From Trichoplax sp. H2 (Eukaryota), in assembly GCA_003344405.1 (NCBI GenBank), contig NOWV01000143.1, positions 124,001-188,000 on the forward strand: 64,000 nt of DNA, in the 5' to 3' direction. The notes under the pieces were generated by a model, which did not search any database, was not told the origin of the DNA, and saw nothing but the letters and a program-made list of their open reading frames with translations. How positions within the stretch are numbered: the first letter of the stretch is position 1; each line of letters starts with the position of its first letter. Below, one piece after another: positions 4,301 through 60,470 of the stretch. A program made the translations under genes and the position numbers.

Positions 4301-7300
4301 ATCTTTCGGCGTAATTTATCGCTAATGAATGCTCACACACACTGACGACAATACGCTGCAGTATGCCTTTCGTGGCATAGAATTAGTAATACTTTATGGA
4401 TACTATCACTAGTTGGAACGATTAAAATCTCACGTTATCAGGTTCAAATAGGTACATAGACTATAAATCGTAATCTTACCAAGCAGTTATCACCAAAGAG
4501 TATTGACATCCTACGTGATACAATACCAGTGAGTATGCTATGTTGAACATAAAATGAGTCATACTTTACAGAAACTATTACTAGCTTTCGAAAGAATAGC
4601 ACATTACATTATACAATCATCGATAGTACGATTCTTAGATTCAAAATTATCAAAGAATAGACAGTTAAGATGGTCGATCAATGTGATTTTATCGTGGATG
4701 ACTCACTGGTAAATGCGTTACGAGATCACTTCATTTTATTGATTGATTACTTCCAGACGCTGCTTAATATTACGTATTGATCGAATATATTTTGACAGAC
4801 GCATAAAATGTAAAAACGATTGGCTATAAACGTACTATTATTAACCTTTGATGGATTATTTACTTGTACTCATCTATCGTCCTTTATACACCAAGAATTG
4901 TGATTTGATTTCAAATTTGTATGTACCAGTACTTTGATTTTTGCTCATGATATTGTACAGCATAAATTGAGATAATTTCCTGTCCTGATTTTCTCCTTGT
5001 GATTATCTTTGCAACATCAGATTCTAATTCTTGCGTAATTTATTGCAATTTGCTCATTTCGTATTTACAGGTAGATAAGGTCACATTGAAAGATAGATTT
5101 AATCCAAGCTTTGAAAATAACGGAACGCTTCATTTAACAGCAACCCATCTAATTTTTATTAATCCTGCAGTTAATCCAGAACTATGGGTAATTACAATGC
5201 TAATTAAGAAATGCTTTATGTCAAATATTCTACAGTATATCTTATATTCAATTGCAATGGATGAAATTGAATACAAACTCCATATGTACGGTGGTTACTG
5301 TTGGAAGCAATTAGTCTAATACTCTACTAGCTTAAATATATTGAGCTTAAATTTCATCTTATGTGTACTTCTGTTGAATACTTGTCATAAATTAGATTAA
5401 TAGCAACATTAGTTTTAACTTATTCATTTTTGGATCAATTATATTAAATAGACCTTTGAGTGATTGCTAAAGTAAAGTTTTAGTGCAATTTTGGTAAATC
5501 AGATTTTTCATCATGGTATCAGCCAAACTGATCCAGTGATAATTTTCTTATATTTTTAGTTATCTTACTCGCATATAGCTACTGTGGAGAAGCAGCAAAT
5601 TAGTATTAAAGGAGCACCACTAAAAATTGTCTGTAAAGATTTTCGTGTCCTAAACTTTGTCTTCTACAAGGAGCCTGATTGTCAAGACGTTTATGTCTCA
5701 CTACAAAATTTAACAAAACCAGGTATGTTTACAAATGTAGAAATATTAATTGAAATTAGGCTTAGTAATTACTACCAATTCCTAAAATTACTTGTTTAAA
5801 ATTATCGTCCTCAGTAAATTATGCGGAATTGCACGCCTTTACTTACGAACCTCCTGGTAGTAAATGGCCTAGATCTGACGGATGGAATATTTTCGAATTC
5901 GAAGCTGAAATGACTCGCTTAGAAGTACCGAGTGATTTGTGGAGGAAAACAGATATTAATAAAGATTATAAGGTAAAATTACGATCATAAATCTATTTAA
6001 TGTGCACACGTTGTTGTTCCTTAGCTACTACCATATGTAGAGTTGATTCTTCGCTTATGATCTAAAAATATTACCGTCGTATTATATTAGCAATCGCTAA
6101 ATAACATGATTATGTAATGGTGTTGTAAATACTCTGTGTAGCTATGTCCAACCTATCCTGAAGTCTTGTATGTGCCAGCGACAGCTACAGAAGAGACTCT
6201 AACCGGTAGTGCATCTTTTCGTAGCAGAGGTAGACTACCCGTTCTGACTTATTACCATAAATACAACAAGGTAGAATTTTGTTTTATTATTGTTAAAGCT
6301 ATCTAAACTAATAATTAGCGAGTACTAGACTACTCGATCTGATAGATTTGATAGACAATTTATTCGTAAGGTTATTTTTCAGTACATGTTAAATTCTTGC
6401 ACGTAGACTGCCTTATGCCGCAGTAGTCAGCCATTAACAGGAATGCGGGGAAGAAGCGTAGATGATGAACAATTATTACAGGCTGTAATTCAATCAAATC
6501 CGAAGTCTCCTGTTATGTATATAGTAGATACCAGACCTAAGGTAATTCGACCAATGTCATTTACTTATATTATCATTTATTGATGTCTATACTTATTTAA
6601 GAATTGCATTATGGACTGAATTTAGATTAATGCTATGGCGAATAAGGCTGCTGGCAAAGGTTATGAAAATTTGGACAATTATCCTAATGTTCTATATCGA
6701 TTTCGTGGAATACAAAATATTCATGTTATGCGAGAGAGTTTGCAAAAGTTATCGGAAGGTTAGCCAATTACTCCACGATCATGTGAATATCATTAATTTT
6801 TTATGCTAATCAATCGCTAACTTGTAATTAATGTGTCTTCTAGTTATAGAAAATCCTGCGCTAAATGCTGGCGAATTTTTCGATTCTTTAGATAGTAGTA
6901 GTTGGCTTAAGCATATTAGATCAGTAATTGATACGTCTAGATTTATTGCCCTGGTTAGTATCGCGTCGGTACAAGACGAAATTCAGATTTAAAGGATTAC
7001 CTTGTTTTTTAAAGTGACGTAGATTGTAATGTTATACTTTTTAGGCAATGCTAATGGATAATGCATCAGTATTATGCCACTGTAGTGATGGATGGGATAG
7101 AACTGCTCAAACATGTGCTTTAGCATCGTTATTTCTAGACCCATATTACAGAACAATTAAAGGCTACCAGGTACAGTAAATTGGCTATTCCAATATAGTT
7201 GCCAGTCATTCTATAAACAATATAAATTGACGCTTTAGATATTAATTGAGAAAGACTGGCTTGCATTTGGCCATAAATTCAACTGCCGGTAAGAGATTTA

Positions 7301-8566
7301 CTTTTAGATATCGGTTTATTTCAAAATTAGTTACTAACTATAGTATTATTATGAATTCTTTGACGAACTTGATTTAGTTGTGGATTACTACGCCGTGAAA
7401 ACCGCGAAGTTTCGCCTGTATTCACACAATTTATAGATTGTACATGGCAGATAATGCAACAGTTTCCGTTCGCATTTGAATTTAACGAACAATTTCTTTT
7501 AACTATACATGACCATGTTTATTCTTGCCAGGTTAGTTACTATTAGTAAGACTATTCCTGAGATCTTTAAAATTGATATGTGCTAATATTAGTAAAATAT
7601 CAGGAATATAGTCTATCTTCTTTAAATTCTATCAATTTTTCTATAGTTTGGAAATTTCTTAGGAAACTGCCAACAGGACAGAAGGAAGGAGTCGTACGTA
7701 ATATAGCTGACGTATTAATTTATGTTTCAAAATTGGGTTTCATCTATCTCTGTTTAGTGAAATACTAAATCTTTTACCAATTATACGGATAGACTTTCTG
7801 AAAAGACCTATTCATTGTGGGGTTATATGTGCAAACAGTTGGCAACATATTTGAACCCTTACTACGACCCAAACTTTAATGCAGATAAAAGAGGAATAAT
7901 TATTCCATTGATAAATCCTCAGTGTATAAGGTAATCATTAAAGTCAGTTCATAATGTTATTACTATATCAATACACAACTCAAATAGCAGCATTTGAAAT
8001 TGATGTAGGCATTAATTGTAGTATCCTTTCATATAGATTCTGGTCGGGTATGTATAATAGACATGCTTTGGCTCATTCTAAGTCCGAAACAATAGAGGAT
8101 CGAGCTACCAGAATTTATGCTGATAATAAGAAATTGGAGAAAGAAATCTCAGCTATATCCGAAGTAAATTATATTGTTACTATATAATTGATGCATTTTA
8201 GCTTTCTATAACTATAAAGTTTACCCATAAGCGCTTTCAGTACAGTATATGTGATGTGTTCAATTTGATGCACAGGAAATTGCACTTTTAGAAAATAAAA
8301 GCGCTGAGGGTCAAGTAAATGGATCAATTCGCGAAAATCCAGAGGATGAAGATGAAAATTCTAATTTACAACTAAATCATGATCTGAAGACGATGGATAG
8401 CTCTACTACCGAAATAGATGTACAGCAAGCTACAGAAATAGTAGACAGCAATACTCTTTCAGAATTTGAGCAATTAGCTGTCCAGGATTCTATTAGTGAC
8501 GGAAACGAAGTAAAAAACACAGAGATGACTAAAGATGTAAATTATACTATTTCCGATGAGGCTTAG
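1320..8566 (+). CDS. MTMR6/7/8: Myotubularin-related phosphoinositide 3-phosphatase, MTMR6/7/8 subfamily (15 coding exons, ~633 aa)
   Basis: Hand-spliced GT-AG exons: 1320-1343 (MDYLQTTK), 5071-5187, 5560-5722, 5815-5972, 6142-6270, 6407-6541, 6626-6758, 6844-6953, 7045-7170, 7239-7288, 7378-7531, 7647-7693, 7793-7930, 8037-8163, 8276-8566. Total 1902 nt, frame kept throughout. Contains the PH-GRAM start ([25 protein letters not shown]), [36 protein letters not shown], catalytic HCSDGWDRT (7078-7104), [23 protein letters not shown], then a likely coiled coil and an acidic tail. Confidence 0.95.
1421..2295. repeat. Compound tandem repeat (~125-190 bp units with an embedded 10-bp GTTGAGACTR minisatellite) in MTMR intron 1
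   Basis: Repeated unit: cgttatacagtccatgggattgt(g/a)aagaattgatcaaaatgttgtcatacgggtcca + (gttgag[a/g]ct[g/a])n + cggatgtgttgtcttccctctaggt..tatctgcctttggatagat. The decamer count varies between units. Interrupted by the N gap at 1817-1836. Confidence 0.92.
2296..4325. repeat. Near-identical ~825-bp duplication (2296-3120 vs 3496-4325) straddling an assembly gap; probable uncollapsed haplotype
   Basis: The two blocks align at an offset of ~1200 with scattered SNPs and small indels. Copy 1 ends exactly at the 20-N gap. Confidence 0.85.
3141..3495. repeat. Further units of the same compound tandem repeat
   Basis: Same unit sequence resumes directly after the N gap at 3121-3140. Confidence 0.9.
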
Positions 8567-9430: not shown

Positions 9431-11491
9431 TTATGCTTGTGCCAACGCGATAATACTAAAATTTACTTCTGTTGGATCACGCTGCATAAGAGATTGACAC
9501 ACTTTAGCGGCATCCTAAATAGTAAGATATTAAGAGCAAGCATATTCGTGAACAGATATGTTTGCCGTAAGAAGAATGGTATTAATTAGTGATACGTAGA
9601 TAGGCTATTGCTGACGCTTGTAATATGAAAGCGTGAATAGCAATGAACATTACCTTTAGAAATGATTCGGGGCTTGAGGAGCCATGATTGATAGGGAACG
9701 GTTTGCGTCCATCTACATGAATTAAATCTTAACTTGTAAGAATTTATCGTACTATCAACGGCTTTCTTGCAGTATAGGTGGTGTACAACGTACCTAACTC
9801 ATATAAATGGCCACCATTTTGGACGAGAGCAACGTAATGCAAGTTAACCTCCTCGTTAACGCTTGGAGCCTAACACAACGAATAATTTTATTCATTCACC
9901 GACGATATAGCAAATTGCAAATGTCACAGTTTAGTAACTTGAGGATACAATTATAACCGGACGTACGTTCATACATATACTGCACATCAGCTAAATATTT
10001 GTACTGACGCTATTTACTGTAAATTAATAAAAGACTGTAATGTACTGTAGATCGCAATCATAACTGCTGGAAAATGATAAATTGTTATTTTCTATATATT
10101 GCCCATTACATCGGTGTACCATGAAGATTTAAGTATTGCTTTTAGCCTGTAAGATAGTCAAGTAATAATAATTATTGACAGTTACCTGAGTTTGCCCTTC
10201 ATGAGCGCATGCTTCGTGAGCAGAAGTAATTTCCTGATAGAGATTAATAAGAAATATCATTGATTTCGTGCAATCATTATACTGTAGTCGCATTCTCTAT
10301 TGTGAGGTTACAGTAGAATTGGTAGATGGTGAAATTTTAAAGATATCCTAGGTATACTTACATTATCATTTTCAAGATAGGCTGCTCTTTCTACCGCATT
10401 CATGTTAGCTGTAGCTTGTAAAAATTCCTTTAGGTAGCCATTATCGAGCTGAACATTTGCACTGTTGTTGCCGAATGCATGTATAAGTGCGATTGTACCA
10501 CAAGCGTTGCCAATCGTTTGCTTCATAAAATAGACATCGTCGCCAATAAACTACAGTACATCAGGCCAATACAATATACACTTACAATTTGTTACCAGAT
10601 TAATTAAATTTATGGTTATGGTTATAATTTGCTGTATCTGTAGGCACATATAAACAAATACTTAACTACTGCAAAATTAGATGTACTCGTATATTATAGC
10701 AGTACAATAAACTTTGTTCCTTTGCAGGATAACGAGTAGTTAGTTAGATAGACACTACAGTCCATGTAGACCTAATATTAACTCACTTATCGATTGATAC
10801 TATTTCTTAGTTTTTACAGTTACGAATGTTCGTATCTAGCTGACCTGGCCTTGAGTACCAAGTCGATTGACTTCATCAGTTATGTAATTTTCGTACTAGA
10901 TAAATTAATAAAACACGTAAACGCATTAGCAACTATAATTCCAACGACTATCATAGTGTTAAGGGAAATAGAAAGGTAAAAGAAAGCTGATATCAATCAC
11001 CTTCGATGTTATAGGAAATAGAACTAATAAGGCTACGACAGGTTGAGGTAAGAAAGCTAGTAATTCATCGTCTAATCCGAAAACATCGACAAACTGCCAT
11101 GCTTTGGGGACCCCTAAAGCATAAGCAAACTATTCCCTCGATATGAGGTTGATCACATCAAAATTAATAAACAAGCAGGCATTGCATCAATGACGTCTAT
11201 CAACTTGTAGTCTATCGATACGTTCTAATTCTTGGATTTCTTATTGGACGCTATGAGTAATACCTTGTTTATAGCCTAGCATAATAAATAGAATTATTTT
11301 CAAATTAGGATCATCTACACGTCGCACTGAATTCCATTGTACAGTATATATAGATCGCTTCTCACGTATGATTTGATCGATTTTCTATGCAGTTATGATA
11401 AGTAGGCTTCAATTTATAGCAATCTACGACGATTATGCAATACCTCTGGGTTGGATTCAAGCGGCAACCAACGTGATGTTTGACCGGACAT
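9431..11491 (-). CDS. UCHL3: Ubiquitin C-terminal hydrolase, UCH-L3/L1 family (peptidase C12), 9 exons, ~231 aa
   Basis: Exons (minus strand): 11491-11444 ([16 protein letters not shown]), 11275-11264 (AINK), 11129-11001, 10895-10845, 10550-10362 ([13 protein letters not shown]), 10233-10186, 9869-9794 (LHYVAL..HLYEL), 9712-9654 ([11 protein letters not shown]), 9514-9431. Total 696 nt, all GT-AG. Oxyanion Gln and the Cys/His/Asp triad are intact. Confidence 0.96.
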
Positions 11492-13315: not shown

Positions 13316-14441
13316 CATTAAGCTTATTCATGGATATACAACTGCTAAGTAGACGTTTTCCAAATATCATTTATACTATGGTATAATCGTATAAACCGAA
13401 GGGGCCTAATGAATCAAGCGTGTTCAATATATATAAAATAATAAATAAATATAATCCACATCAAGAAATGTAAACGTATTGGCTGAAGCACAGTACAATA
13501 CAGTATACAGTACAGTACTTTACGCGTATAGGCAGTAATATAATAATATCATTAATTTATTTATTTATGTATGAATTTGTTCCACTTGGTTCTAATACAA
13601 TACAGTACTGTATATCTGTCAGGAGATATCTATCCATTACGATGCAGGGACTGCTGAAAGGAAGCGATTTCTTCTGGATACTAGTATCTAGAATCGAGAT
13701 GGTAGAAGGGCAGTTTTTTTCTTCCCCAAGCTCATGGGTTGATGTCTGTCTCTCTTATTAAGGAGTCATTAGGAAGAAACTGTTGACACTTATGATCACG
13801 GTAAAGTTAAAGTTTAAGAGTTGTTTCCAAGGCATCGCAAACCTCGACTCAACCTAGAGATGCTTTGGTTGTTTCCCATACTGTGTACAGTACTATAGAA
13901 CCGAGGCGAATGAATCGAATTCAGTAAGTCTGTCCCATCCGATGTCTCTGACTGCTATTACTGTACTGTACAGTGTACAGTCTATGTACTGTACTGCTGA
14001 GGTGAGTATGGGATTCCTGCCATTTCGAAATTGGGGATCTCGAGGAATTTAGCATCGTGTTTAGTGCGGTAGTTTCAGCCAAGTAGCAGTAAGAACTTTT
14101 TACTTATAATAACTGGCGGGAATGTAATGGGATTCGTAAGGACCATGGACTAACTGTAAAACAGTACTACAGTAATTGCAGTTGTTCAGTAGCATGGCCT
14201 ACTTCAACACTGGTGTTAGTCCGGTCACGCTACACTACAGTACAGTATACTGTAGAGTACTGTACTCTACACTGTGTCCAATTGACTGTTGAAAAATGGT
14301 CCACTTGTACGACTGCGCATGTTCTACCTCACATGACTGTACTGTACGTACAGTCATGTGTGGTACTGTGCTCGACGTGCACACAAACCAGTAAGACCTG
14401 TAAGACCTGCGCTACCCTTCAACGCATGAATAAAAACAAAG

Positions 14442-16169
14442 ATGGCTGCATGCAGACTGCAGGTAATCCGATGGAGAAATTTCCATTCAATGCTAGGTGT
14501 ATCTTATCGATATTTAAATAATAGAGGTACAAGCCATCATCCGAGCTTTTGTAGATATCTTCATTTTAGCTCGATCAAGTATGATAACAAAGAAATGGAT
14601 GAGAAAGGAGAGAATAAAGCAACAGCTCCAAGCCTGAATACCACGGCTGGTCGTTTCGGATCCAAAATTCGACCTACCCCATTGCAGTTACCTTTTGAAG
14701 AATTTATCACATTTCGTAAGAAATTAAAAGTCAGAAGTAGGATTGCCGGAGTTCCTTTTGGCCTGTTAGGTTTAACAGCTTCATCAATGGTATCAGCTTA
14801 CATGCTTCCAAACATGTTTGATACACCACCGGATGAGATTCAACCGATACTGTAAGTGCTAGCAAATGCTACGCTTGCAAATTATATTACTGTACAGCAG
14901 TCGATGAAACTCATTTCTTGACTCGTACAATCGTCGTCACACAGATAGATTCCGTATACAGTACATTGAAATTAGTCCACTCTATTATCAATCAATTGCA
15001 TCTTAATAACGGCACACTTCCATTATAAAATACTGCAATGATAGCCTATAAATACTATCGATTAAATAGGTAGCTTACAGTATACTACTATACCAAGCCA
15101 CTCATTGAATCCATGGTATACATTCAACATGATGCAAAACTACTTATAAAGGTTTCTACAGTTCTAGAAATCAATGCTATGCGCAACTGATCAGTTATCT
15201 CATACAATGATTCCATGTCATTCGATATCGCGATAACTCTAGCTTAACCTCGTTTATCATTGGAAGTTACCTTCAATTCTTGGCTTGCTACTTTGAACTA
15301 GACGCGTATTAGCATTCTGTACATTGCAATTCACTGACTGCATACTATAATACTAGAGAATCAATCAATCTTCAAAATCAACGGTAGGATCTATACAGCT
15401 GGCATCGAACATCGTTGCCAACATGCAGCTGCATACATCGTGTGAGAATCAAACTTGCAAGATTTCAATAGATCTACTCTTGTCTACTTCAGTCAATTAA
15501 AATAATAGTTTTATGATATCATCAATCTTTTTACTTGAAGGGCTTCTCTGTACTTGCAATAATTCAAGCTATTTATTCATACGAGCACAGTCAACCACAA
15601 CTATATTAATCATCCATTGTACATTTATACTATAGAGGAATGGATCCAATCATATTTTGCGCTTCAGCTGGTGTTTTAGCTAGCTTGTGCACTTTTGTTG
15701 GAGGGTCTTCGCTGTATCGCTTTTTCTGGAAGATTTCTAATAGAGAATTAGCTAAGAATATAGATGAGGTAAGATTACATTACAGATTACTACCTAATTT
15801 TATATAGGTACCGCTACTGCATACGGTATCTATTCTTGAAAATATATATTTGCAATCTTGTCCGACTGCTTGGGATACTATTATGTTAACAATGCAGCTA
15901 TTTGCAGAAATAATACTGAAAGATTGTAATAACATCAGCATTGATATAGTCAACTATACCTTAAATGTTGTTTCTTCACTAATGTCAAATAGCGTGAGAA
16001 AGATTTCTTGCAAAGAATAGAAGCCAATCGTGTTTCAAGGTCGTATGGTACGAGCAAATATGAAGATGATTATTATGGTGATACTATCGTTACGTTAAGT
16101 GATTATCGACAATGGTTGAGAAAACAACAACAAAAAGCTCAAGATGTTACTAGTTCAGATAAATCGTAA
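14442..16169 (+). CDS. PAM17: Pam17-like mitochondrial presequence translocase-associated motor subunit (3 exons, ~239 aa)
   Basis: Exons 14442-14851, 15636-15768, 15993-16169 (720 nt, GT-AG, in frame). Arg-rich, acid-free N-terminus resembling a presequence, then LPFEEFITFRKK, TM1, PILGMDP, TM2, REKDFLQRIEANRV and DYYGDTIVTLSDYRQWLR. These match the yeast Pam17 motif order as I recall it (LTWSDFFKLRK, FGFDP, KEFLKHIINNRV, PDYYGEKIGSLKEYKQWLR). Confidence 0.85.
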
Positions 16170-19100
16170 TTAAACTTTCTAGGATGTGTTTTCAATAATT
16201 ACTGTTCTTGCAATATTAATATTTTTGAATTATCATATAAGACCGACTCGAATATTATCCATATAAGCTAAGAATGGAATTGCTAAGAAATTGCATCATT
16301 AGCCATAATCATTGCTACTATCTCCACAACTGTAAATCTACTATTTAGTTTATCCTACTTTGATTATTTGCATTTGTGATTTTGCTAAACTTATTTCATT
16401 CCTTAGCAAAGATGTATAATGTCCGTTTTATTGCAGCTTACTCAATATATAAGCATGAATTGGTTAACACTCTTTTAGGTACTGTATTTATGTTTCAGTA
16501 TCCGTGATAATACATTCTTTCTAGATGCAGGAATCAAATGTCAATAAGTCGTTTAAGCTAATCATATTATATTGTAATGTAAAACAAAAGTGGTAGACTA
16601 CTATATTACTCTAACTAAATCCAATTATGTTTAAGTTGTGCTCGCATTGTTTATGTTACTATTGATAGATTTCAGGCATGATACATTGTTTGTCAATTGG
16701 TCTGACCTCACCAACTGAATGAGAATAAATATGGCGCTAGATAATATTTAGAGTCTAGAAAATGCTTGATTCTCGATAGTAGAATTCTCGTTATGTTCAG
16801 TCGCAAAATATTACTGATTTACAATGCAAGTAGTAAACAAGGTGTAGCTCTTATTTCAATATCTTGTGCGTATAATTGTAAACGTCCTCGAGGATATTTC
16901 TTTGTGATTAGTAGTTAGTGTTATTTAAAATGTTTACGATTGACAGCATATAAGTAGTTGTTACAGTACACCTTTCAGCTTACAATTGTTACGATCATAA
17001 GCTGAGTGGTGCCCTATAACTTGACGCGAAAATATCAAAGTTAAGGCGTCCAATCAAGAAAAAGTCTTAAATAAATAAATTAATGTATTAAAACTGCATG
17101 GTTACGATTTAATGTACGAACAGACTTAACAGGGATATGTAGAAATAATGAACTATATATAATACTGCAATCTGAATTCTGTTCTTTAATAGACTATAAA
17201 CAATAACTTTTACTATTTTATAAAGACTTTAGTTTTCACTCTGACAGTAGGTAGAGACTATCTTCGCTAGTCCTCGCAGTAACTTTCAATCCTCAAAGAT
17301 TGTTTATAGTATCGCGAAATTTGTAAATTTTAGCCAAATGAATATGAATCAATAAAATATACATAGAGGATAAAAAGTCACAAAATCGTGCCTTATTCTT
17401 ACAACAATATGCAACAAATCATTTCGATGTCAATACCAAAAAATTAAATACAGAACAGAGCAAACCAAATTCTAGTATCCGGTTAGTATAAATCTCAAAT
17501 TGTTTCCTTGTATGAGTTCAGCTAATTTACTGATAGCATTTAGTTTTTTTTCACCTGGTTACAATTGTATATTAAAATTGCCAATTAATTGACGTGATTT
17601 AATTTCAACGTCAGCTTTGGATCAATGTTGCTATCGTTTACATTCAGTTCTAGGTTTTGACCTCGAGGCAATAACTAGCTTCGATCAGAATATTTCTTTG
17701 GTATCACAGCCGAATCCTTTGTTTGAAATTATTTTTCAGAATGGTGTATCGGTGTTGACAACATCTTTGCTTTTCGTATGGTCTAAGTTACATAAATTTA
17801 CTAAGCTGATTTGATATTTATTGCAGTATACTTGTATTGAATAGATTTATTTATTTACGCCGGTGAACACTCTTGCCAAAACAGCAGAATACGACATACC
17901 TACAAATTTGCTGATAAGACTTAGCAATTACTTTGTATTTACAACACAGGTAATCTTAGCTATCATTATTATTTTCCATAAACCTTCTATAATTGTACGA
18001 CCATATATATCATCGTACCTTGAAATTTAGCAGATAAAGTGTTTAACTTAAGCTTTTAATTGCATTATTAATCGCTTCAGGTAAGCTAACGACTTTCTTT
18101 TCGCTTATTAAACAATTTGTATAACATGAAAATGTCACACTACTTCAGAATTCTTGTGCACTTCAGCTTTTTAAGATTAAGATTTTGTCTAGATTTAGTA
18201 TTTAGATTTTGATTAATAATCCTAGTCGTTTCACTGTTTCAGTAAATCTTTTAAATGCATTACAAAGTTTACTTTAGAATAAATATAGTGCAGCAGCTAT
18301 GTGCGCCCAAGCACTGTAATGTATATTCTATCGCTTTATTCCATCGTAAGATGATTGATCATTTAAAAAATTTTCTAGTGAAATAGAGCTTTTACGATAC
18401 TGAGTTCAGGACTTTAGGCATACTCTTTCATAGTTTAATAGAATATTAAATTCTTTGATTATTTTCAGACCGCTGTTACTAGTGTAAGTCGATCGAATTT
18501 CTAATTAAATATAAAGTATCATGTAGTGAAGTATCATTCTTGATATATTTCTCGTGCTTATGCAACAATTTTCGTACCGTTTGAAAGCTACATAAGGGCG
18601 ATAATCTGATTTCAGACTATTCTGTTATACCTTAATATGATCTTTAAATGTCAATATCCATTCCGATAATTTAATGGCTATTAATATTGATAATCACTTA
18701 TAAGACACCTTCAATGTTGCAAGCAGGCTGATATTTAATGGTTGCAATTTAAAATGCTAATCGTTTAATTAAATATCTATCTGGTACTTCCGTTTATAAT
18801 GCTAACAGATATCTAGACATCACGTGTGTAAAATTAAAAGTTGTCTTCGTTATAATATTCTATCAATTTATGCCTGGAAATTTCATCTTAAGCCATGGCA
18901 AATCAATTTTGATCTGTTATGGACTGATAACTGTATAGTATGCAATACATTACAAAATACTTAGCAATTACTGAAATTCCACTGACTAGTCGTTACTCAC
19001 AATGGTCTGGATTGTCTCTAGGCTTGACAACTAATCATCTGAAATAATCAGTATTTTTCTTTCACGAAAATTCATAGCATGAATAGTATTATATCCGTCT

Positions 19101-58870: not shown

Positions 58871-59926
58871 CTATTTAGTCGATGTTTTCCGCAAGCAGCC
58901 GCCACTATCACGAATAATAAATAGTGTTGATGTTCTGCGAATAGGAATAATGGTAGAAGTAAATTTTATCGATTTAATACTTTGACGAAAAGATGGACTT
59001 GATGCCATATATATAAAAGGATTCCACACCGATGAAGAATAAGCAATCATTCTAAATACAAATGAGATATTGGCCATGATAAAATACAAGGATGGATCTT
59101 GTTTAAATCTTGTACGAAGCGCTACATCCATAAATAGTAGAGTATAAAATCCAATACTAGATAAAATATAAACTAGCAGAACAATAAATGCCGTCTTTGC
59201 GCGACGTTTAGCGTAACAAAGTTGATGTGCATTAGGCTGTAGATGGATAGGTAATTGATTTAATTTTCGTAGTACTTTACCAATGACAATATAAGAAACG
59301 ATTCCAGAAATCAAAGGCATAAAAAATTGTATTATCATACCAGAAATTAAATAAGTTATAGAAGACTGTGCTTGCATACGGATATAGCAATATTGATAGG
59401 GTGTTAAGGTCAAAAAATGAATTTGAGGCGAAGCGAAGGTAAAGCTGAAAATCCAAATTAGACAAATAACTAAACCAATAGCTTTAGTACTACACCAACG
59501 TTCGAAAAAGAACGGTTTTGCGATAGCTAATGAACGATCAATACTAACTACGACTAACGTTAAGGCAGAAACGATAATAACCGTTGTTTGGATTACAGGT
59601 ATAGCTTTGCATAAAAAGAGACCATAATAAAAATAACCTTTATTTAACATAATTGTTCCTGTAAACGGAATGGTAATGGCTAATAGAAAGTCTGCGGTTG
59701 CTAAATTGCAAAATAACATAAACATATTAGTGGATCGTAAGCTACGTGATAGCAGAATTACTATAATAATAGTACTATTAGCGATAAATCCGCCAGCAGC
59801 TATGATATAGCTTATGATAGCATGCATCACAAAAGGGATTGGTGCTATAGCATCCGAAGATCGTAAATTCGCTGAAGTGGTTAATAAAAATGATCCATTG
59901 CTGTCCGGTAGAGATGTCATAGTCAT
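58871..59926 (-). CDS. Single-exon class A GPCR, peptide-receptor-like (351 aa)
   Basis: Complete 7TM ORF: N-terminal NGS sequon, TM1 AN, LRSTNMFMLFCNLATAD, LCK, SALTLVVVSIDRSLAI.KP, TM4 W..S...P, FFMP, AYSSSVWNPFIY..S..FR. Confidence 0.92.
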   Translation of the reverse strand: MTMTSLPDSNGSFLLTTSANLRSSDAIAPIPFVMHAIISYIIAAGGFIANSTIIIVILLSRSLRSTNMFMLFCNLATADFLLAITIPFTGTIMLNKGYFYYGLFLCKAIPVIQTTVIIVSALTLVVVSIDRSLAIAKPFFFERWCSTKAIGLVICLIWIFSFTFASPQIHFLTLTPYQYCYIRMQAQSSITYLISGMIIQFFMPLISGIVSYIVIGKVLRKLNQLPIHLQPNAHQLCYAKRRAKTAFIVLLVYILSSIGFYTLLFMDVALRTRFKQDPSLYFIMANISFVFRMIAYSSSVWNPFIYMASSPSFRQSIKSIKFTSTIIPIRRTSTLFIIRDSGGCLRKTSTK

Positions 59927-60470
59927 TTTTTCTCTTCACCGTTAGTATAGATGAAATAATTTGATTAGGGTAACTTAATTGATGCTATTTCTGAAAATAA
60001 GATTAAATTTATTATAAGATAGCCAGACTATTAACAATTTAATAAGGAATCAAGAAAACTGCAAATTATAAATGATTTTAAAGTACTGAATACATAAATA
60101 ATATTAAACTTTTCAAACGTAAGGCTAGAATCTACTTTAAGTCTTAAAGGTTTTACTAACTGTTATTACAGAGAAAGCAAAATGCATGCATTAAGAATGA
60201 AGTATATGATTCACTGCAACGATTTTCCTATTATAACTACAGGTTTAGATGCTATTCGAGTAAAAATTCATATAAGAACTTATAATTTGATAATATATAG
60301 TAAGAAAGTCGGCGCACTTCTAAGTTTGCTTCTGTTTTTCCTATAGTATATTATATTGATAAATTCTGATTATTCTAAAATTCTTTTCAAGGTTTTATTT
60401 ATGTTAATAATGGCTCATAGGTACCGTTGAATGCTTTTTTTATTTTCCAGTAAACTTGAATAGAAATTGT

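What the first reader, a model, noticed from the sequence alone, without database searches (positions are those of the whole stretch)
14442..16169. Pam17-like TIM23 import-motor subunit in what appears to be an animal genome
Seen: a three-exon gene encoding a presequence-like N-terminus, two hydrophobic segments joined by PILGMDP, and a C-terminal KDFLQRIEANRV...DYYGDTIVTLSDYRQWLR block. The ORF track shows only exon 1. Established: yeast Pam17 has this layout, modulates Pam16-Pam18 association with TIM23, and is commonly described as having no homologue in mammals or other well-studied animals. Inference: canonical introns and a position beside animal-type UCHL3, MTMR and GPCR genes argue for vertical retention in an early-branching animal rather than contamination. 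That implies a more fungal-like mitochondrial import motor, with later loss in other animal lineages. The segment before DYYG (SYGTSKYED) differs from the fungal SFSNPVP as I recall it.
Basis: partly seen in the sequence, partly recalled or inferred. Interest (0 to 1): 0.85.

Follow-up and report, generated by a model that had tools for sequence, protein, structure and literature searches.

The report
Pam17 import-motor gene in Trichoplax
This is a real, expressed three-exon gene for Pam17, a helper of the mitochondrial protein-import machine usually called yeast-specific, sitting in a placozoan (Trichoplax) genome; public databases already name it, so it is a tidy confirmation rather than a discovery.

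Summary
Exons 14442-14851, 15636-15768 and 15993-16169 (+) join through two GT..AG introns into a 239-aa ORF. RNA-seq contigs from three runs of one study carry both junctions. All three exons hit Pfam Pam17 (PF08566) in collinear order. The 99%-identical database protein scores 120 bits, E 1.1e-34.

That protein is Trichoplax adhaerens TRIADDRAFT_56126, which UniRef already names PAM17. Cnidarian orthologues are named pam17-like in RefSeq or PAM17 in UniRef. At database level the finding is therefore already known.

New here:
- The deposited 188-aa model lacks 51 N-terminal residues. These have a presequence-like composition and are conserved in two related exon-1 ORFs.
- In trees the protein sits with cnidarians and a sponge inside Holozoa, apart from fungi. 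An AU test rejects a fungal placement, p 0.0017.
- Many unnamed ORF fragments end or start at the window's exon boundaries.

Reviews still call Pam17 yeast-specific. Whether any bilaterian keeps it was not resolved. Its role at TIM23 is inferred from homology only.

The parts
14377..14441 (+). 5' leader (minimum extent). It holds an in-frame TGA at 14427-14429 and one out-of-frame upstream ATG at 14426 in a weak context.
   Evidence: RNA contig X11 record 3 begins at 14377. Leader ATGs and contexts: ACAAAGATGG for 14442 against CAACGCATGA for 14426.
14442..14851 (+). Exon 1 CDS (aa 1-136 plus 2 nt of codon 137). It codes the presequence-like N-terminus, a conserved basic helix and the first hydrophobic segment.
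   Evidence: Pfam Pam17 HMM 14-54. The exon is 54-58% identical to two unnamed exon-1 ORFs, P0002 and P0003.
14442..14594 (+). N-terminal 51 residues missing from the deposited 188-aa model. This is the presumed mitochondrial presequence.
   Evidence: There is no acidic residue before aa 48, and 5 K/R lie in the first 30 aa. The region aligns with P0002 and P0003, which have V, not M, at the deposited start. It is transcribed. Amphipathicity was not above shuffles.
14742..14807 (+). First transmembrane segment (about aa 101-122, IAGVPFGLLGLTASSMVSAYML).
   Evidence: Hydropathy windows. Nearly invariant among the placozoan-like ORFs. Lies within AlphaFold helix 34-70 of P0001.
14852..15635 (+). 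Intron 1, 784 nt, GT..AG, phase 2.
   Evidence: Joint 14851 to 15636 in RNA contigs of X11, X12 and X17.
15636..15768 (+). Exon 2 (aa 137-181): GMDP turn, second transmembrane segment (core about 15646-15705) and the start of the matrix helix.
   Evidence: Pfam Pam17 HMM 67-109. Hydropathy maximum 1.97 at aa 142-160. AlphaFold helix 90-120 of P0001.
15769..15992 (+). Intron 2, 224 nt, GT..AG, phase 0.
   Evidence: Joint 15766 to 15991 (cut +2) in RNA contigs of X11, X12 and X17.
15993..16169 (+). Exon 3 CDS (aa 182-239 plus TAA): the conserved matrix-side C-terminal block. DDYYG...SDYRQW lies at 16065-16115.
   Evidence: Pfam Pam17 HMM 111-161, E 4.5e-15. D156, Y157, Y158, G159, Y168, R169 and W171 of P0001 are invariant in 18 sequences.
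16170..16300 (+). 3' UTR (minimum extent; the RNA contigs run past the end of the stretch laid).
   Evidence: X11 record 6 and X12 record 8 reach 16300. No AATAAA or ATTAAA lies within 16170-16700.

Best explanation
The locus is the placozoan orthologue of Pam17, inherited vertically from the opisthokont ancestor. It is transcribed and spliced from three exons into a 239-aa precursor.

Inferred architecture:
- A basic, acid-free N-terminus of about 50 residues serves as the mitochondrial presequence.
- Two transmembrane helices joined by a short loop (PNMFDTPPDEIQPILGMDP) insert as a hairpin in the inner membrane.
- The conserved C-terminal helices (REKDFLQRIE...DDYYG...SDYRQWLRKQQQ) face the matrix.

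Inferred function, by homology with yeast Pam17: it binds the Tim17/Tim23 core of the presequence translocase. There it supports an early, membrane-potential-dependent step of matrix-protein import, before the Tim44/Hsp70/Pam16-Pam18 motor takes over.

Shown here: gene structure, expression, family membership and phylogenetic position. Inferred only: mitochondrial targeting, membrane topology, TIM23 binding and the import role.
For: - Gene model and splice sites. Both junctions and the 5' leader appear in RNA contigs of 3 of 3 RNA runs (one study); the DNA-like run is unspliced.
- Family: PF08566 hits all three exons collinearly. P0001, which equals aa 52-239 with one substitution, scores 120.1 bits, E 1.1e-34, over HMM 14-161 of 165 in one stretch.
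- Relatives: an exhaustive phmmer search gave 294 relatives at E<=1e-3, 62 at E<=1e-10 and 6 at E<=1e-30. The best organism-named ones are a sponge, corals, Nematostella, choanoflagellates, Sphaeroforma and Pigoraptor.
- Trees: fungi and holozoans split at 100/98. Trichoplax plus fungi is rejected, AU p 0.0017. Animals form one clade at 91/91, in 92% of 200 bootstrap trees.
- Exon boundaries: 30 of the 150 listed hits are ORFs that end exactly after the Q-P-I-L-type triplet, where the window's donor CT|GTAA makes a stop. A further 14 exon-3-like ORFs have Q directly before R-E-x-D-F.
- Structure: AlphaFold with an 18-row alignment gave mean pLDDT 80.6 and pTM 0.66. Helices 34-70 and 90-120 of P0001 span the two hydrophobic segments, followed by helices 122-142 and 165-187.
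- N-terminus: no D/E before aa 48. The conserved F-E-E-F motif lies at aa 85, as in cnidarians (78-86) and unlike the deposited model (34).
- Yeast function, from passages read: a two-TM inner-membrane protein with both termini in the matrix, recruited through Tim50 (PMC8346121). Loop 1 of Tim17 crosslinks to Pam17 (PMC5773037). It supports import of membrane-potential-sensitive matrix proteins (PMC12998175).
Against: - No functional or localisation data exist for any animal Pam17.
- The crude amphipathic-helix measure on the first 40 aa was not above chance: 1774 of 2000 shuffles reached it. No dedicated targeting predictor was available.
- S. cerevisiae Pam17 itself could not be obtained. 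Reciprocity to the yeast protein was not tested, and no ascomycete is in the trees.
- Support for the animal clade is moderate (91/91). With unnamed rows included, the animal part of the tree is unresolved and holds the Sphaeroforma group.
- All RNA support comes from one study and from assembled contigs, not raw reads.
- Whether Trichoplax has the partner subunits was not checked, because no genome was held.
Confidence: 0.8

Rival explanations
1. The gene is fungal contamination of the assembly, or a horizontal transfer from a fungus into Trichoplax.
For: Pam17 is described as yeast-specific in reviews (PMC11675802 and PMC8346121, passages read). The nearest large ESM Atlas clusters are fungal.
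Against: - The near-identical protein lies on an 8.57-Mb scaffold.
- The gene is flanked by MTMR, UCH and rhodopsin-type GPCR genes.
- CDS GC is 0.38 and intron GC 0.30-0.35, like the neighbouring genes (0.34-0.38) and the window (0.31).
- The closest named relatives are corals, Nematostella and a sponge, at 41-55% identity across.
- Fungi are separated by a 100/98 branch.
- The AU test rejects a fungal placement, p 0.0017.
Confidence: 0.02
2. It is a true Pam17 homologue whose role has drifted in animals. For example, it might be a general small inner-membrane protein not attached to TIM23, or attached to another complex. The import motor of placozoans would then be no more 'yeast-like' than that of mammals.
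For: - Holozoan proteins differ consistently from fungal ones in the loop before DYYG.
- They are only 24-35% identical to the fungal rows.
- Pam17 is non-essential in yeast (PMC5773037, passage read).
- No Pam17 homologue has been identified in humans (PMC11675802, passage read).
- No animal experiment exists in the library searched.
Against: - The whole architecture is kept: pre-TM basic helix, two TMs, the GMDP turn and the C-terminal DYYG..YR.W block.
- 14 columns are invariant across 18 holozoan sequences.
- The protein gives a single full-length match to the fungus-dominated Pfam model.
Confidence: 0.15
3. It is a decaying or non-functional relic, transcribed but not needed.
For: The deposited gene model differs from the one here at the N-terminus. 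An out-of-frame upstream ATG lies in the leader at 14426.
Against: - The 239-codon ORF is intact with canonical splice sites.
- Spliced RNA contigs appear in 3 of 3 RNA runs.
- The TM1 region is invariant against ORFs that are only 54-58% identical overall.
- The ATG at 14442 has a strong context, A at -3 and G at +4.
Confidence: 0.03

Closest known systems
Trichoplax adhaerens TRIADDRAFT_56126 (NCBI; UniRef name 'Presequence translocated-associated motor subunit PAM17'), 188 aa
   Same: It is the same gene. It is 99% identical over the shared part, with the same exon 2 and exon 3 reading.
   Different: The deposited model starts at the internal Met (aa 52 here) and so lacks the 51-residue presequence-like N-terminus. 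It has N where the window has D (G/A at 14598). The A variant is seen in run X1.
Cnidarian 'presequence translocated-associated motor subunit pam17, mitochondrial-like' proteins: Orbicella XP_020619846.1, Acropora XP_015777476.1 and KAK2563493.1, and the Nematostella 245-aa protein
   Same: Similar length (245-249 aa against 239). The N-terminal extension before the conserved F-E-[ED]-[FY] motif is 77-85 aa, as here. They share PILGMDP and EDDYYG..SDYRQWLR. They are the nearest rows in both trees.
   Different: They are 47-51% identical over the shared part. Trichoplax has a 3-4 residue insertion (RS-YGT) before SKYEDDYYG.
Fungal Pam17 (Pfam PF08566; the yeast protein is the studied one)
   Same: One full-length Pfam match. 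Shared features: two TM segments, the GMDP-type turn, the C-terminal [DE]F..R...NR...D[FY]YG....YR.WLR.Q block, and an N-terminus free of acidic residues.
   Different: The fungal rows listed are 24-35% identical. Fungi carry a longer N-P-x-P-D-[FY]-YG loop where holozoans have K-[FY]-E-D-D-YYG. Fungi form a separate, strongly supported side of the tree. The yeast sequence itself was not compared.
Solved structures
   Same: None. No PDB chain matches the profile; the best hit is E 0.6 to an unrelated dioxygenase subunit. Foldseek against the PDB gave 0 matches at E<=0.001.
   Different: There is no structural reference for the family, so topology rests on hydropathy and an AlphaFold model.

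Membership tests
Pam17 (Pfam PF08566) | A significant match to the family HMM, above the gathering score, over most of the model | tested here: met
   Exon 3 alone scores 56.4 bits against the 25.4 cut-off. Exons 1 and 2 add collinear sub-threshold hits. P0001, which equals aa 52-239 with one substitution, scores 120.1 bits, E 1.1e-34, over HMM 14-161 of 165.
Pam17 (Pfam PF08566) | Two hydrophobic transmembrane segments joined by a short loop | tested here: met
   Hydropathy windows above 1.0 at aa 99-126 and 132-168. AlphaFold helices 34-70 and 90-120 of P0001 have block pLDDT of 81-97. Membrane insertion itself was not shown.
Pam17 (Pfam PF08566) | Conserved C-terminal matrix block (D-[FY]-Y-G ... 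Y-R-x-W) | tested here: met
   Invariant columns D156, Y157, Y158, G159, Y168, R169 and W171 in 18 holozoan sequences. The same block is in the 5 fungal rows.
Pam17 (Pfam PF08566) | A cleavable N-terminal mitochondrial presequence | tested here: inconclusive
   Composition fits: no D/E before aa 48 and 5 K/R in the first 30 aa. The extension is conserved in P0002 and P0003 and is transcribed. However, the maximum helical hydrophobic moment was reached by 1774 of 2000 shuffles. TargetP and MitoFates were not available.
Pam17 (Pfam PF08566) | Reciprocal best match to S. cerevisiae Pam17 | not tested
   The yeast sequence could not be obtained through the tools. Proteins that NCBI names Pam17 or 'TIM23 complex component' in Lentinula, Kickxella, Spiromyces and Coemansia are hits at E 1.4e-19 to 1.4e-12.
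Pam17 (Pfam PF08566) | Physical association with the TIM23 translocase and a role in matrix-protein import | not testable with these tools
   This is known only for yeast (passages read in PMC5773037, PMC8346121 and PMC12998175).

The most novel reading that the evidence does not exclude
Pam17 is not a yeast or fungal invention. It is an ancestral opisthokont subunit of the presequence translocase, still kept with conserved intron positions in placozoans, cnidarians, at least one sponge and unicellular holozoans. It was lost on the line to bilaterians, or at least to vertebrates.

Non-bilaterian animals would then run a yeast-type import motor. The point of loss would give a comparative handle on the open question of what does Pam17's job in human mitochondria.
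Probability: 0.45. Interest if true: 0.45.

Novelty: already known. Interest (0 to 1): 0.28.

Why it matters
Reviews of mitochondrial import still call Pam17 'yeast-specific'. They note that no human counterpart has been identified (PMC11675802 and PMC8346121, passages read).

The sequence databases show otherwise for early-branching animals. This window gives one clean, RNA-supported, vertically inherited example. Its practical value is modest:
- It corrects the deposited Trichoplax model by adding the 51-residue targeting region.
- It shows that the holozoan proteins form their own branch, with a recognisable signature (K-[FY]-E-D-D-YYG).
- It points to cnidarians and placozoans as animal systems where Pam17 function, and its later loss, could be studied.

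It does not reveal a new kind of protein or mechanism.

Tried and rejected
- **Whole-genome search** for Pam17 copies and partner subunits: no genome is held for this window. Presence of Tim44, Pam16, Pam18, Tim21 and Mgr2 was therefore not checked.
- my first exon coordinates were off by one or two bases. They were corrected.
- **Word-indexed profile search** with the 18-row alignment returned only 15 proteins among 6517 candidates. It added just Nematostella and P0204. It is not a survey of animals.
- **Names.** Of the 30 clusters looked up, 15 carry an organism name. Adding Trichoplax, Nematostella and the EukProt row Seg985.1 gives 18 organism-labelled clusters, and none is a bilaterian. 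Half the clusters are unnamed, so this is not evidence of absence.
- **An unplaced group.** P0008-P0011, plus many exon-sized ORFs with N-P-R-M-F-E-M-T-P-E-E, could not be assigned to a taxon. It groups weakly (89/85) with Sphaeroforma.
- **ESM Atlas**: only large fungal PAM17 clusters came up, with nothing on animals.
- **PDB by sequence** and **Foldseek against the PDB**: no relative.
- **Rfam** on 14000-16700: no match at E<=1. The RNA contigs inside intron 1 are thus not a known RNA family.
- **RNA cover.** Parts of the introns have no RNA cover. I draw nothing from that.
- **Amphipathic-helix test** of the N-terminus: not above shuffles.
- **Earlier findings of the scan:** nothing on this genome or this protein. 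The two notes returned concern bacterial Pam18-like J-proteins and do not bear on this.
- **Literature.** Searches for Pam17 together with Trichoplax, Nematostella, metazoa, opisthokont or 'eukaryotic lineages', plus 'motor subunit pam17' and PF08566/IPR013875. I found no paper in the held library that reports an animal Pam17. The broad searches were poorly specified and mostly listed papers without Pam17.
  - PMC3097184 says only that Pam17 was 'found in opisthokonts' (passage).
  - The main text of Fukasawa et al. 2017 (PMC5455965) has no occurrence of 'Pam17'.
  - Supplementary tables of these two papers could not be seen and may list animal occurrences.
  - The original Pam17 paper (PMC1190294) is not held.
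- **Complex prediction** was not used. No partner sequence from this organism was available.
Full report
**1. What is in the sequence**

Reading 14000-16700 and translating the candidate exons gives a clean three-exon gene on the + strand.
- Exon 1: 14442-14851.
- Exon 2: 15636-15768.
- Exon 3: 15993-16169.
- Intron 1 is 784 nt (gtaagt...tatag, phase 2). Intron 2 is 224 nt (gtaaga...aatag, phase 0).
- The CDS is 720 nt: 239 codons plus TAA.

My first coordinates were off by one or two bases and were corrected. The ATG at 14442 follows an in-frame TGA at 14427-14429 and sits in a strong context (ACAAAGATGG). The only other ATG in the transcribed leader, at 14426, is out of frame and in a weak context. 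Hydropathy shows two hydrophobic stretches, at aa 99-126 and 132-168. The quoted motifs (PILGMDP across the first junction, and the KDFLQRIE...DYYG...SDYRQWLR block in exon 3) are present.

**2. Is it expressed and spliced as proposed?**

Yes. Twenty of the 22 public runs listed hold the stretch or a part of it. I laid four of the 22: the three on record as RNA (X11, X12, X17, one study) and the best holder, X1.
- All three RNA runs contain contigs that join 14851 to 15636 (GT..AG).
- All three also join 15766 to 15991, which fits equally as 15768 to 15993, GT..AG.
- One 1109-nt contig of X12 carries both joints and runs on past 16300.
- A contig of X11 starts at 14377, upstream of the ATG.
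- X1 covers the whole stretch without joints, as DNA would.

These are assembled contigs from a single study. They show that the spliced form exists, not its level.

**3. What family**

Pfam PF08566 (Pam17) matches each exon in collinear order:
- Exon 1 matches HMM 14-54, E 0.02.
- Exon 2 matches HMM 67-109, E 0.0012.
- Exon 3 matches HMM 111-161, E 4.5e-15, 56.4 bits against a cut-off of 25.4.

The exon-1 ORF is 99% identical to P0001. NCBI calls P0001 'uncharacterized protein TRIADDRAFT_56126 [Trichoplax adhaerens]', UniRef calls it 'Presequence translocated-associated motor subunit PAM17', and it lies on a contig of 8,573,113 bases. P0001 as a whole scores 120.1 bits, E 1.1e-34, over HMM 14-161 of 165. 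So the window is from Trichoplax or a near-identical placozoan, and the gene already carries the Pam17 name in public databases.

**4. A correction to the deposited model**

P0001 is 188 aa and begins at the window's internal Met 52, with N for the window's D at the next residue. The G/A difference at 14598 is seen in run X1. Four results favour the longer 239-aa reading:
- The upstream part is transcribed.
- Two unnamed exon-1 ORFs, P0002 and P0003, are 58% and 55% identical overall and 72-81% over the conserved part. They align from their own MAA... start and have V, not M, at the deposited start.
- The conserved F-E-E-F motif then lies at aa 85, as in Nematostella, Orbicella, Acropora and the EukProt row Seg985.1 (78-86). 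In the short model it lies at aa 34.
- The first 47 residues have no acidic residue, and there are 5 K/R in the first 30.

Against a firm presequence call: a simple helical-moment measure was not above chance, with 1774 of 2000 shuffles reaching it. No dedicated predictor was available.

**5. Relatives and descent**

An exhaustive phmmer search of 1.84 billion representatives with P0001 gave 294 proteins at E<=1e-3, 62 at E<=1e-10 and 6 at E<=1e-30. I looked up 30 clusters, and 15 carry an organism name.
- Animals: Oscarella pearsei (sponge). Orbicella and Acropora (corals), which RefSeq names 'presequence translocated-associated motor subunit pam17, mitochondrial-like'.
- Unicellular holozoans: four choanoflagellates, Sphaeroforma arctica, Pigoraptor chileana, and 'Clim_', which I recall as Corallochytrium.
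- Fungi: Kickxella, Spiromyces, Coemansia, Lentinula and Geosiphon.
- Other searches added Nematostella and the EukProt row Seg985.1/GoldUCD, which I recall as Aurelia.

None of the 18 organism-labelled clusters is a bilaterian. Half of the clusters are unnamed, so this is not evidence of absence.

Trees:
- **35 rows** (the window protein, 17 named and 17 unnamed full-length hits; fragments and the remaining hits were left out). The five fungi plus two unnamed rows are separated from the other 28 rows by a 100/98 branch. The window's nearest rows are the four cnidarians. The animal part is unresolved and includes the Sphaeroforma group.
- **AU test.** Holding the window with the five fungi costs 31.6 log-likelihood units and is rejected, p 0.0017.
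- **18 named rows only,** rooted on fungi. The tree follows the species tree. Animals form one clade of 6 rows at 91/91, in 92% of 200 bootstrap trees. Choanoflagellates have 92/91 support, and a Pigoraptor-Sphaeroforma-Clim group 92/92.
- **Limits.** Only five fungi are included and no ascomycete. The alignment is short (about 240-250 columns) and several branches are long.

**6. Intron positions**

Among the 150 hits listed:
- 30 are ORFs that end exactly after the Q-P-I-L-type triplet. That is where the window's donor (CT|GTAA) creates a stop.
- 28 read through into G-M-D-P. These are spliced transcripts or intronless genes.
- 36 lack that junction but carry the exon-3 block. In 14 of them a Q stands directly before R-E-x-D-F, as a CAG acceptor read in frame would give.

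I did not see the DNA of these records, so shared intron positions are an inference. They fit long vertical descent in intron-rich genomes, not a recent transfer.

**7. Context**

The gene sits among typical animal genes:
- Myotubularin-related exons (MTMR6-9-type GRAM domain and phosphatase domain) at about 4966-7543 on +.
- A UCH family-1 (Peptidase_C12) gene on - at about 10311-11129.
- Downstream, a row of rhodopsin-type GPCR ORFs from about 19873 to 59935.

GC of the CDS (0.38) and introns (0.30-0.35) matches the neighbours. Contamination is not a tenable reading.

**8. How it probably works**

AlphaFold with the 18-row alignment gave mean pLDDT 80.6 and pTM 0.66. In P0001 numbering the model shows:
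- a long helix, 34-70 (basic pre-TM part plus TM1);
- a loop of about 20 residues;
- helix 90-120 (TM2);
- helices 122-142 and 165-187, bracketing the invariant DDYYG turn.

No solved structure resembles the family, by sequence or by fold.

By homology with yeast, from passages read:
- Pam17 is a two-TM inner-membrane protein with both termini in the matrix, recruited via Tim50 (PMC8346121).
- It is crosslinked to loop 1 of Tim17 and is non-essential (PMC5773037).
- It supports import of membrane-potential-sensitive matrix proteins before the ATP-driven step (PMC12998175).

The placozoan protein most likely does the same at its own TIM23 complex. That step is inference. The main rival is that the holozoan branch has drifted in function.

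**9. Comparison with fungi**

All 13 holozoan rows have a short, mostly acidic run ending in D-Y-Y-G; in the six animal rows it reads K-[FY]-E-D-D-Y-Y-G. The five fungi have a longer N-P/T-x-P-D-[FY]-Y-G. Trichoplax adds a small insertion (RS-YGT) of its own.

**10. Novelty**

Reviews still call Pam17 yeast-specific and say no homologue has been identified in humans (PMC11675802 and PMC8346121, passages). PMC3097184 says only that Pam17 was 'found in opisthokonts'. I found no paper in the held library that reports an animal Pam17. Supplements could not be read, and the original 2005 paper is not held.

The databases, however, already name this very protein and its cnidarian orthologues. What remains is a corrected N-terminus, RNA-confirmed splicing, a tree showing vertical descent, and an untested proposal that the loss happened on the way to bilaterians.

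Noticed in passing
window 14442-14594: The deposited Trichoplax protein TRIADDRAFT_56126 (188 aa) starts at the internal Met 52. It therefore lacks the 51-residue presequence-like N-terminus, which is transcribed and is conserved in two related exon-1 ORFs.
   Followed up: yes
window 14598: A G/A difference changes D53 (window and the RNA runs) to N (deposited protein and DNA-like run X1). It is probably a strain or haplotype difference between placozoan lines.
   Followed up: partly
window 15195-15600 (inside intron 1): All three RNA runs have a separate contig here: X11 15217-15392, X12 15208-15503 and X17 15195-15600. In X17 its depth is about half that of the exons. There is no Rfam match. 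It could be unspliced precursor, a retained piece or an unannotated transcript. The strand is unknown.
   Followed up: partly
window 13950-14365: Just upstream of the transcript start, the motif TACTGTAC recurs in direct and palindromic copies (for example 14231-14264, and arms 14325-14342 / 14348-14365 at 94% complementarity). It may be a promoter-proximal element or simple repeat typical of this genome.
   Followed up: no
window 14426-14521: An out-of-frame upstream ATG at 14426 opens a 32-codon ORF that overlaps the main start. Its context is weak, so leaky scanning is expected.
   Followed up: partly
window 19873-59935: A row of rhodopsin-family (7tm_1) GPCR ORFs, mostly single long exons. 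Six lie on +: 19873 (weak, below the Pfam cut-off), 21388, 30052, 36479, 43195 and 48622. One lies on - at 58874-59935. This looks like a tandem GPCR cluster.
   Followed up: partly
window 4966-7543 (+) and 10311-11129 (-): A myotubularin-related gene (MTMR6-9-type GRAM domain plus phosphatase domain) and a UCH family-1 deubiquitinase gene flank the Pam17 gene.
   Followed up: yes
proteins P0008-P0011 and exon-sized ORFs such as P0116, P0120, P0126, P0133, P0143, P0147: A diverse, unnamed Pam17 subgroup is marked by N-P-R-M-F-E-M-T-P-E-E. Its ORFs end at the same exon-1 boundary. It groups weakly with Sphaeroforma and could be further animal phyla or ichthyosporeans. Its identity decides how wide Pam17 is in animals.
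   Followed up: partly
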